A DNA stretch of 4,294 bases from assembly GCF_003334385.1 (NCBI RefSeq), contig NZ_QOWN01000084.1; one strand, given 5' to 3'. The notes under the pieces are model-generated. The model saw only the letters and a program-made list of their open reading frames with translations. It did not search any database and was not told the origin of the DNA. The position numbers were made by a program, and so were the translations under genes. The stretch comes from Escherichia coli. GTDB taxonomy: Bacteria; Pseudomonadota; Gammaproteobacteria; Enterobacterales; Enterobacteriaceae. Positions 3,359 through 3,544 of this stretch are shown here, piece after piece. Each line of letters starts with the position of its first letter. Positions within the stretch are counted from its first letter, which is position 1.

Positions 3359-3444
3359 AATCAGATGGAGGTTTATGATGGAATGTCATTTTTATATTGC
3401 TTTTACGCCATGATCTTCTTTGTATATTTCTAATTATCTTTTTC

Positions 3445-3476
3445 TGTTGTTTTTTTATCTCTGCTTGTTGTTTTTT
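3445..3476 (+). repeat. Two copies of an 11-bp direct repeat (TGTTGTTTTTT) in the usher-pilin intergenic region
   Basis: TGTTGTTTTTT occurs at 3445-3455 and 3466-3476, spaced 21 bp (about two helical turns), inside a pyrimidine-rich tract upstream of the pilin gene. It could be a regulator-binding or promoter element, or simply T-rich low-complexity sequence. Confidence 0.3.
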
Positions 3477-3544
3477 GAGTGTATTGTAGAGATCGTTAAC
3501 TCGATGTGAGTTTCCAAATATTAATCTCTATAGGGTATTGCATA

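What the first reader, a model, noticed from the sequence alone, without database searches (positions are those of the whole stretch)
3359..3544. Long structured intergenic region between usher and pilin with a tiny uORF, repeated motifs and two GATC sites
The 186-bp gap is unusually long for an operon-internal junction. It contains a strong Shine-Dalgarno sequence (GGAGG, 3367-3371) driving a 12-codon ORF (ATG ATG at 3375/3378 to TGA at 3411-3413, MMECHFYIAFTP). It also has a pyrimidine-rich tract with two copies of TGTTGTTTTTT spaced 21 bp apart, and GATC sites at 3412-3415 and 3493-3496. This suggests the pilin has its own promoter or regulatory region, possibly with a leader peptide or Dam-methylation-sensitive control, separate from the chaperone-usher transcript.
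Basis: seen in the sequence. Interest (0 to 1): 0.35.

Follow-up and report, generated by a model that had tools for sequence, protein, structure and literature searches.

The report
Likely activator-dependent promoter before pilin gene
The long T-rich gap between the usher and pilin genes of this plasmid-borne fimbrial locus most likely carries a binding site and promoter for the Rns-type activator encoded next door.

Summary
The exception is the second GATC, at 3491-3494 rather than 3493-3496.

- **Not structured:** RNA folding z = -0.19, no Rfam match, no terminator.
- **The repeat:** the two TGTTGTTTTTT copies belong to a 21-nt tandem duplication (3434-3454 / 3455-3475), and each copy begins with TTATC.
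- **The regulator:** an Rns-family AraC regulator lies about 3.3 kb upstream, separated from the operon by IS debris.
- **The binding site:** TGTTTTTTTATC (3448-3459) matches the published Rns consensus TATTTTTTTATC at 11 of 12 positions. It sits on the coding strand, 22 bp upstream of a -10-like TATTGT. This is the known AggR/Rns promoter layout (joint chance about 0.004 in composition-matched random sequence).
- **No independent promoter:** no activator-independent sigma-70 promoter stands out on this strand.
- **Weak features:** SD+ATG pairs also occur inside genes, the GATC spacing is 79 bp rather than Pap's roughly 102, and no PapI/PapB genes are present.
- **No conservation test:** all 11 retrieved copies have an identical spacer, and the nearest relatives share only about 30% protein identity.

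Verdict: a probable new example of a known promoter type. It is unproven and of modest interest.

The parts
187..930 (+). Periplasmic fimbrial chaperone gene (247 aa)
   Evidence: NCBIfam LpfB/FimC-type chaperone models, E = 1e-33. Precomputed Pfam PapD_N and PapD_C.
917..3358 (+). Outer-membrane usher gene (812-813 aa). It overlaps the chaperone's end and stops with TAA at 3356-3358.
   Evidence: NCBIfam usher models, E = 1.6e-107. Pfam PapC_N, Usher and PapC_C. The nearest homologues are only 33-34% identical.
3359..3544 (+). The 186-nt T-rich spacer that is the subject of the finding
   Evidence: T 90, A 41, G 33, C 22; GC 30%. It is identical in all 11 retrieved copies.
3367..3371 (+). GGAGG Shine-Dalgarno-like pentamer, 9 nt after the usher stop
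   Evidence: This is one of six GGAGG on the + strand, and three of those have an ATG 3-6 nt downstream.
3375..3413 (+). 12-codon mini-ORF MMECHFYIAFTP ending Pro-TGA. Probably fortuitous, or the vestigial start of a lost downstream gene.
   Evidence: No family match. Conservation cannot be tested.
3412..3415 (.). GATC site 1, overlapping the mini-ORF stop codon
3427..3438 (+). Weaker Rns-type site, TTTCTAATTATC (8/12 to the consensus, TATC intact). Its TTATC (3434-3438) opens the first copy of the 21-nt repeat.
   Evidence: The 67% threshold used for footprinted Rns sites comes from PMC2579436.
3434..3475 (+). 21-nt tandem duplication (2 copies, 17/21 identical). Each copy starts with TTATC and contains TGTTGTTTTT.
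   Evidence: Chance about 0.03.
3448..3459 (+). Best Rns/AggR-type activator site, TGTTTTTTTATC (11/12 to TATTTTTTTATC)
   Evidence: Consensus from PMC2579436. It also fits WWWWWWWTATC from PMC6392122.
3482..3487 (+). -10-like hexamer TATTGT, 22 bp after the TATC. The predicted transcription start is near 3494 (inferred).
   Evidence: The 21-23 bp spacing rule comes from PMC6392122.
3491..3494 (.).
3483..3510 (-). Minus-strand sigma-70-like site, CTCACA-16-TACAAT, pointing back toward the usher gene
   Evidence: It is the second-best score in the whole window with my own PWM. Function unknown.
3498..3512 (+). Small 5-bp hairpin (AACUC/GAGUU) that would lie near the 5' end of a transcript starting at about 3494
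   Evidence: Not significant (z = +0.72 for 3488-3548).
3532..3535 (+). Weak ribosome-binding site AGGG, 9 nt before the pilin ATG
   Evidence: Read directly from the sequence.
3545..4105 (+). Pilin gene (186 aa) with a signal peptide, an N-terminal donor strand and a C-terminal ...NYNIVYP motif
   Evidence: NCBIfam FimG E = 7e-11 and StaE E = 2e-10, both far below cut-off. The best full-length relative is 29% identical, and it is the first (major-subunit) gene of a related operon.
4122..4144 (+). Intrinsic-terminator-like hairpin (10-bp stem) followed by a U-rich tail, closing the transcription unit after the pilin
   Evidence: -13.7 kcal/mol, z = -3.6.
4201..4294 (.). End of an IS2-like insertion sequence
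   Evidence: 92-97% identity to thousands of E. coli, Klebsiella and Salmonella copies. The IS2 name is from my own recognition of the terminal sequence.

Best explanation
The spacer is the regulatory and 5'-untranslated region of the pilin gene.

**Proposed mechanism**
- An Rns/AggR-family AraC-type activator is encoded in the same locus.
- It is predicted to bind TGTTTTTTTATC (3448-3459) on the coding strand.
- It may also bind the weaker duplicated site TTTCTAATTATC (3427-3438), two helical turns upstream.
- Binding would overlap the position of a -35 element and recruit RNA polymerase to the -10-like TATTGT (3482-3487).
- Transcription would then start near 3494 and give the pilin mRNA a leader of about 50 nt.
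- The transcript would end at the hairpin at 4122-4144.

**Why this would make sense**
It would let the cell make much more pilin than chaperone or usher. It would also keep the pilin under activator control even though IS insertions have cut the chaperone-usher genes off from their original upstream region.

**What this does not exclude**
No terminator follows the usher, so read-through from upstream probably also reaches the pilin gene.

**Other features**
The mini-ORF, the GATC sites and the T-runs are best read as by-products of T-rich DNA and of a local 21-nt duplication.

**Shown versus inferred**
- Shown: the sequence elements, their spacing, their chance levels, and the family of the regulator.
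- Inferred: binding by the regulator, the transcription start point, and promoter activity.
For: 1. The regulator encoded 3.3 kb upstream in every long copy of the locus belongs to the Rns/CsvR family. Its match to the Rns structures has E = 4e-29 over residues 21-271, and the DNA-binding half is 42% identical.
2. The published Rns core consensus is TATTTTTTTATC, and footprinted sites share at least 67% identity with it (PMC2579436). The spacer carries an 11/12 match on the coding strand.
3. AggR-dependent fimbrial promoters have one WWWWWWWTATC site 21-23 bp upstream of the -10 hexamer (PMC6392122). Here the spacing to TATTGT is 22 bp.
4. With a start near 3494 the site is centred at about -40.5, the position reported for the proximal Rns site of the CS1 promoter (PMC5192496).
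5. Chance levels in composition-matched random spacers:
   - an 11/12 site on the + strand, 0.036;
   - such a site together with a suitably spaced -10, 0.0036.
6. No activator-independent sigma-70 promoter stands out on the + strand; the best ranks 89th of 42,590 positions in the window. This fits an activator-dependent promoter with a poor -35.
7. In the related operon on L014/L016, the homologue of this pilin is the first gene, directly behind the operon promoter region. In L015 (Hafnia), GGTTTTTGTATC-N22-TAAAAT lies at a similar distance from the major pilin's start: site end 75 nt upstream there against 85 nt here.
8. A clear terminator follows the pilin gene.
Against: 1. The motif is degenerate and the DNA is AT-rich.
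   - The looser AggR rule finds 10 'promoters' and 45 sites in the 4.3-kb window.
   - A second 11/12 match to the Rns consensus lies on the minus strand inside the usher gene, at 2554-2543.
2. The regulator is only about 42% identical to Rns in its DNA-binding half, so its specificity is assumed rather than known.
3. The -10 is weak (4/6), there is no extended -10, and there is no distal site 70 bp upstream on the other strand as in class 5 fimbrial promoters.
4. The relative whose regulator is closest to this one (L009, 42% identical) shows no such site within about 600 bp upstream of its pilin. Neither do L014 or L011.
5. In the caf1 operon (regulator, then chaperone-usher-subunit), a predicted promoter before the subunit gene proved non-functional. 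The excess of subunit mRNA there was attributed to differential stability (PMC6440114).
6. All 11 copies of the spacer are identical, so there is no evolutionary evidence of constraint.
Confidence: 0.45

Rival explanations
1. The spacer is a passive intercistronic region of a single chaperone-usher-pilin transcript. Pilin excess, if any, would come from differential mRNA stability or RNase processing in the AU-rich spacer, as proposed for caf1, pap, daa, cfa and afa-8. The Rns-like site would then be a chance match.
For: - No terminator lies between usher and pilin, and a terminator appears only after the pilin.
- The caf1 operon has the same gene order. It was shown to be polycistronic across its usher-subunit spacer, with no second promoter found (PMC6440114).
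- afaABCD is processed rather than internally promoted (PMC3664800).
- The motif is degenerate in AT-rich DNA.
Against: - No stable RNA structure is present that could act as a 5' stabiliser or processing signal.
- The joint chance of the site together with a spaced -10 is about 0.004.
- IS insertions lie immediately upstream of the window, so the original operon promoter may be gone. A purely polycistronic pilin would then have no regulated promoter.
Confidence: 0.3
2. The spacer is a rearrangement scar. A gene that once followed the usher (the tip adhesin present in relatives) was lost, or the pilin gene was moved here. The GGAGG-ATGATG mini-ORF would be the orphaned ribosome-binding site and start codon of the lost gene. 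The rest would be non-functional or borrowed promoter DNA.
For: - In relatives, the homologous pilin is the first gene and a 304-321-aa adhesin follows the usher.
- In the Salmonella relative the adhesin starts 10 nt after the usher stop, the same place as the SD/ATG here.
- The pilin gene has a higher GC content (38%) than the chaperone or usher (32-33%).
- The locus is bracketed by IS fragments.
Against: - No detectable similarity links the spacer to any related spacer or adhesin start (p = 0.4-0.65).
- The hydrophobic reading frames through the T-rich tract are expected from composition alone and have no family match.
- This account is compatible with the promoter explanation rather than exclusive of it.
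Confidence: 0.15
3. The mini-ORF is a translated leader peptide that controls pilin expression, either by daaP-like translation-dependent mRNA processing or by ribosome pausing at its Pro-UGA end.
For: - GGAGG lies 3 and 6 nt before the tandem ATGs.
- The peptide ends Thr-Pro-UGA, a context known from my own knowledge to terminate slowly.
- A precedent exists in daaP of the F1845 operon (reference 57 in PMC3664800).
Against: - Two of the other five GGAGG in the window, both inside genes, also have an ATG at 3-5 nt.
- No conservation data exist.
- No RNA structure couples the ORF to the pilin ribosome-binding site 120 nt away.
- DaaP is 57 codons long, and its Gly-Pro-Pro-type motif is absent here (from memory).
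Confidence: 0.05
4. A Pap-like Dam/Lrp methylation switch uses the two GATC sites to phase-vary pilin expression.
For: - Two of the window's five GATCs fall in the spacer.
- The second GATC lies at the predicted transcription start.
Against: - The spacing is 79 bp, not the roughly 102 bp conserved in Pap-type switches (spacing from my own knowledge; mechanism in PMC9820224).
- No PapI or PapB homologues are called in the 9 kb upstream or 9 kb downstream.
- p = 0.11 by composition.
- The locus uses an Rns-type regulator instead.
Confidence: 0.03

Closest known systems
AggR- and Rns-dependent fimbrial promoters (aafD, afaB, aggD, agg3D of EAEC; cooB, csuB and the CS17/CS19/PCFO71 promoters of ETEC)
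   Same: - An A/T-tract followed by a TATC core site on the coding strand.
- The site lies 21-23 bp upstream of a weak -10, centred near -35 to -40.
- The -35 element is poor.
- An Rns-family AraC activator is encoded in the same mobile, AT-rich locus (PMC6392122, PMC2579436, PMC5192496).
   Different: - Those promoters sit in front of the first gene of the operon; this one would be operon-internal, between usher and pilin.
- The activator here is only about 42% identical to Rns in the DNA-binding half.
- There is no distal site at 70 bp.
- Nothing has been tested experimentally.
Yersinia pestis caf1 operon (caf1R; caf1M-caf1A-caf1)
   Same: - An AraC-type regulator is followed by chaperone, usher and a single polymerising subunit as the last gene.
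- A non-trivial usher-subunit spacer is present.
- The subunit is needed in excess.
   Different: - The caf spacer is 80 nt, and experiments found no second promoter there (PMC6440114).
- Caf1R is not of the Rns subgroup.
- The Caf system belongs to a different chaperone-usher class (own knowledge), whereas this chaperone and usher score best with LpfB/FimC and LpfC/FimD-type models.
afa-8 and daa (F1845) operons
   Same: - The distal adhesin or subunit gene is uncoupled from the assembly genes.
- In afa-8, afaE is independently transcribed and afaABCD is RNase E-processed.
- In daa, processing depends on translation of the small ORF daaP (PMC3664800 and its reference 57).
   Different: - There is no sequence similarity to those loci.
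- The mini-ORF here has 12 codons, against 57 in daaP.
- No small RNA or RNA structure was detected.
Pap-type GATC/Lrp phase switch
   Same: Two GATC sites lie in a fimbrial regulatory region.
   Different: - The spacing is 79 bp rather than about 102 bp.
- There are no PapI or PapB genes.
- A different regulator family is present.

Membership tests
Rns/AggR-dependent promoter | Core binding site resembling TATTTTTTTATC (at least 67% identity) or WWWWWWWTATC, with TATC intact | tested here: met
   TGTTTTTTTATC at 3448-3459 matches 11/12, and a second site at 3427-3438 matches 8/12. Consensus from PMC2579436 and PMC6392122. Chance 0.036.
Rns/AggR-dependent promoter | Site on the coding strand, 21-23 bp upstream of a -10 hexamer (centred about -35 to -40) | tested here: met
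   A 22-bp gap precedes TATTGT at 3482-3487, a 4/6 match with A2 and T6. Joint chance 0.0036. The -10 itself is only predicted.
Rns/AggR-dependent promoter | A cognate Rns-family activator is present | tested here: met
   A 277-aa AraC-type protein is encoded upstream in L002-L008. Its best PDB matches are Rns (E = 4e-29) and CsvR (E = 2e-27).
Rns/AggR-dependent promoter | Promoter-distal second site about 70 bp upstream on the non-coding strand (class 5 fimbrial promoters only) | tested here: not met
   No minus-strand match of 9/12 or better is centred near 3383. AggR promoters need only one site (PMC6392122), so this feature is not essential.
Rns/AggR-dependent promoter | Activator-dependent transcription start and activator binding in vitro | not testable with these tools
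   This needs 5' RACE, reporter fusions and a footprint.
Pap-type Dam/Lrp phase-variation switch | Two GATC sites about 102 bp apart within Lrp sites | tested here: not met
   The GATCs at 3412 and 3491 are 79 bp apart. The 102-bp figure is from my own knowledge; the mechanism is described in PMC9820224.
Pap-type Dam/Lrp phase-variation switch | Adjacent PapI/PapB-type regulator genes | tested here: not met
   The called genes within about 9-10 kb on each side carry no such Pfam families; only an AraC/HTH_18 regulator is present. The truncated 35-aa ORF at 1-105 has no family match.
Leader-peptide or uORF control (daaP-, tnaC-like) | Small ORF with a functional RBS that is conserved among relatives and coupled to a downstream signal | tested here: inconclusive
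   The RBS and ORF are present, but comparable SD+ATG pairs occur inside genes. No diverged copies exist. No coupling structure is predicted.
Intrinsic terminator or attenuator, or a structured RNA element | Stable GC-rich hairpin followed by a U-run, or a fold significantly better than shuffles, or an Rfam match | tested here: not met
Chaperone-usher fimbrial gene cluster | PapD-like chaperone, PapC-like usher and a pilin with a donor strand | tested here: met
   The pilin family assignment is weak (FimG model, 42 bits against a 220-bit cut-off) but is supported by a 29%-identical major pilin in a related operon.

The most novel reading that the evidence does not exclude
The 12-codon ORF ending Thr-Pro-UGA, placed 9 nt after the usher stop and directly ahead of the T-rich tract, could be a translated leader. 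Ribosome occupancy or slow termination on it would set how much of the chaperone-usher transcript survives or is processed into a stable pilin mRNA. That would be a miniature, sequence-unrelated counterpart of daaP. It could act together with the activator-dependent internal promoter.
Probability: 0.04. Interest if true: 0.55.

Novelty: new member of a known kind. Interest (0 to 1): 0.22.

Why it matters
If the site is functional, it adds an operon-internal example to the Rns/AggR promoter class. It would show how a compact fimbrial locus keeps its structural subunit under activator control, and in excess over the assembly machinery, even after IS elements have cut the locus off from its original promoter.

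The locus itself has an Rns-like regulator, chaperone, usher and a single orphan pilin. Its nearest relatives share only about 30% protein identity. Identical copies turn up in many assemblies and gut metagenomes, on a backbone like that of E. coli plasmids. It may therefore be an uncharacterised colonisation factor, and knowing what switches the pilin on would be the first step in studying it.

Tried and rejected
- **Near-identity searches** of the window in complete E. coli genomes and PLSDB plasmids matched only the IS2-like end. A distant DNA search with the spacer and tblastn with the pilin found nothing in plasmids. The regulator region is absent from the complete E. coli set.
- **Looking for diverged copies to test spacer conservation.**
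  - The pilin word search gave only a 99% variant.
  - The usher search showed a jump from 100% to 34% identity.
  - The exhaustive pilin search gave a best full-length hit of 29%.
  - An anchored metagenome scan allowing spacers of 171-201 nt gave three more copies, all with the same spacer.
  - Conservation therefore cannot be assessed, and no T-tract length variation was seen, so slipped-strand phase variation has no support.
- **Aligning the spacer** with the usher-adhesin spacers of L014 and L015 was not better than random. Similarities I saw by eye, such as GGTATTGCAT, are at chance level.
- **RNA-level explanations** (structure, Rfam family, terminator or attenuator) gave nothing.
- **An activator-independent sigma-70 promoter** on the + strand was not found.
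- **The looser AggR rule alone** is too degenerate to be evidence.
- **Family searches** with the mini-ORF, the read-through peptide, the 30-aa T-tract ORF and the truncated upstream ORF gave no credible match. Their hydrophobicity follows from T-richness.
- **TRF** did not report the 21-nt duplication.

Full report
**What the window is**

The window holds three genes:
- a PapD-type chaperone gene (187-930);
- a PapC-type usher gene (917-3358);
- after a 186-nt gap, a 186-aa pilin gene (3545-4105).

The gene identities rest. The last 90 nt of the window are the end of an IS2-like element, the only part that matches complete E. coli genomes or PLSDB plasmids.

The usher protein is encoded identically on many contigs. 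Seven long copies (L002-L008) and two of three further metagenome copies are 100% identical to the whole window. A third metagenome copy has 7 SNPs and a short contig has 2, none of them in the spacer.

In the long copies, a 277-aa AraC-type regulator lies 3.3 kb upstream on the opposite strand. Fragments of IS3-, IS91- and IS630-type elements separate it from the window. Its best matches among solved structures are Rns (E = 4e-29) and CsvR. The flanking plasmid backbone is about 97% identical to E. coli plasmids.

**Checking the observation**

- GGAGG at 3367-3371;
- ATGATG at 3375;
- the ORF MMECHFYIAFTP, stopping at 3411-3413;
- TGTTGTTTTTT at 3445 and 3466;
- GATC at 3412.

Two corrections are needed. 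The second GATC is at 3491-3494, two bases off the stated position. The two 11-mers are part of a 21-nt tandem duplication, 3434-3454 and 3455-3475, 17/21 identical, with each copy starting TTATC.

Chance levels are modest:
- the exact 11-mer repeat, 0.04;
- the tandem repeat, 0.03;
- two GATCs, 0.11 by base composition;
- three of the six GGAGG in the window have an ATG 3-6 nt downstream, two of them inside genes.

'Structured' is not borne out:
- the fold of 3340-3560 is no better than shuffles (z = -0.19);
- the sub-segments do not fold significantly either;
- there is no Rfam match;
- there is no terminator-like site.

**Relatives**

The locus is an orphan. The next-best ushers are 33-34% identical. 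The best full-length pilin relative is 29% identical.

That pilin (P0072) and one of the best ushers (P0006) lie on the same contig (L014 = L016). The order there is pilin, pilin fragment, chaperone, usher, a 254-nt gap, then a 311-aa adhesin. A Hafnia locus (L015) has an AraC-type regulator, two pilins, chaperone, usher, a 188-nt gap, then an adhesin. A Salmonella locus (L011) has the adhesin 10 nt after the usher. An E. coli locus (L009) has a regulator 42% identical to ours, followed by pilin, chaperone and usher.

Two things follow:
- The homologue of our pilin is normally the first gene, sitting behind the operon's promoter region. Here it is last.
- Long AT-rich gaps after the usher recur in this group, but their sequences are not alignable, even between L014 and L015.

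Conservation of the spacer cannot be tested, because all copies of our locus carry an identical spacer.

**What the spacer most likely is**

Because the linked regulator is of the Rns family, I tested the published Rns and AggR site rules:
- The Rns core consensus is TATTTTTTTATC, and footprinted sites are at least 67% identical to it (PMC2579436).
- AggR-dependent fimbrial promoters have a single WWWWWWWTATC site 21-23 bp upstream of the -10 (PMC6392122).
- The proximal Rns site of the CS1 promoter is centred at -40.5 (PMC5192496).

The spacer contains TGTTTTTTTATC at 3448-3459 (11/12) on the coding strand. It is followed after 22 bp by TATTGT at 3482-3487. A start near 3494 would centre the site at about -40.5 and give a 50-nt leader. 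The other repeat copy supplies a weaker site, TTTCTAATTATC (8/12), 21 bp upstream.

In random sequences with the spacer's own dinucleotide make-up:
- an 11/12 site on the + strand occurs in 3.6%;
- such a site with a suitably placed -10 occurs in 0.36%.

No activator-independent promoter stands out on this strand, as expected for this promoter class. A strong terminator hairpin follows the pilin gene (4122-4144, z = -3.6).

**Why the confidence is only moderate**

- The looser AggR rule is very permissive in this AT-rich DNA, giving 45 sites and 10 'promoters' in the window.
- A second 11/12 match sits on the minus strand inside the usher gene.
- The regulator's DNA-binding half is only 42% identical to that of Rns.
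- The relative with the closest regulator shows no such site upstream of its pilin. The Hafnia relative does have GGTTTTTGTATC-N22-TAAAAT at a similar distance from its pilin's start codon.
- The best experimental precedent for this gene order is the caf1 operon, which turned out to have no second promoter in its usher-subunit spacer (PMC6440114).
- Because nothing terminates transcription after the usher, read-through into the pilin gene is likely whatever else happens.

**The other readings**

The mini-ORF sits where the next cistron's start would be: 9-17 nt after the usher stop, as in L011. It may be the orphaned start of a lost adhesin gene, or it may be fortuitous. Nothing supports a leader-peptide role, although its Pro-UGA end keeps a small possibility open.

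The Dam idea fails the Pap criteria that can be tested. The spacing is 79 bp, and there are no PapI or PapB genes.

A minus-strand sigma-70-like site (CTCACA-16-TACAAT, 3510-3483) is the second-best score in the whole window. Its meaning is unexplained.

**Verdict**

The gap is real and its listed elements are mostly correct. Its most meaningful content is a probable Rns-family activator site and promoter for the pilin gene. That would make it a new member of a known kind, but it is unproven. The uORF, 'structure' and Dam readings are not supported. Interest is modest.

Noticed in passing
whole window; L002-L008, L017-L019: The chaperone-usher-pilin locus is an orphan. The nearest ushers are 33-34% identical and the nearest full-length pilin 29%. 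Yet identical copies occur on many contigs (the usher is indexed in 176 blocks), including gut metagenomes. It sits on an E. coli-plasmid-like backbone next to microcin/colicin-type genes, and once next to cobUST-type genes (L008). It is absent from 5,426 complete RefSeq E. coli genomes and from PLSDB.
   Followed up: partly
window 1-105 (+), frame 1; L005 8857-9081: The window opens with the last 35 codons (…EEQLFSIFVVDFHSQAAIDDAIKTIQHRKDLSSNC*) of a gene cut off by an IS630-like fragment. The C-terminus is not pilin-like and it has no family match. The original operon promoter may have been lost with it.
   Followed up: partly
window 127-147: Upstream of the chaperone gene lies GTGTTGTGTATTTTTTTTTAGG. 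It contains a TGTTG plus T-run motif like the spacer repeat and a 10/12 match to the Rns consensus (TATTTTTTTTTA, 134-145). It lacks TATC and has no suitably spaced -10.
   Followed up: partly
window 3510-3483 (-): The minus-strand promoter-like site CTCACA-16-TACAAT is the second-best sigma-70 score in the window. It would drive an antisense transcript across the T-rich tract into the usher's 3' end.
   Followed up: no
window 4122-4144: A 10-bp-stem terminator hairpin lies right after the pilin gene (z = -3.6). The consensus terminator scan did not report it.
   Followed up: yes
window 4201-4294: This is the end of an IS2-like element, 92-97% identical to thousands of copies in Enterobacteriaceae. 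Both ends of the window appear to be assembly breaks at IS repeats.
   Followed up: partly
whole window: GATC is under-represented: 5 observed against about 13 expected from base composition. Two of the five fall in the spacer and one in the IS end.
   Followed up: partly
window 3537-3567: TRF reports a 16-nt unit, 1.9 copies, 80% matches (ATTGCATAATGTTTAA / ATTGAATAAGATTTAT), spanning the pilin start codon. It is probably chance in AT-rich DNA.
   Followed up: no
L014 5972-6225; L015 8157-8344: The two nearest relatives that have a gene after the usher also show long AT-rich gaps there (254 and 188 nt). The gaps are not alignable with each other or with the window's spacer. L014's gap has TATTGTGTTATC-N23-TATATG ending 85 nt before the adhesin start.
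   Followed up: partly
window 3545-4105 vs 187-3358: The pilin gene is more GC-rich (38%, GC3 32%) than the chaperone and usher genes (32-33%, GC3 25-27%). This hints at a different history for the pilin segment.
   Followed up: no
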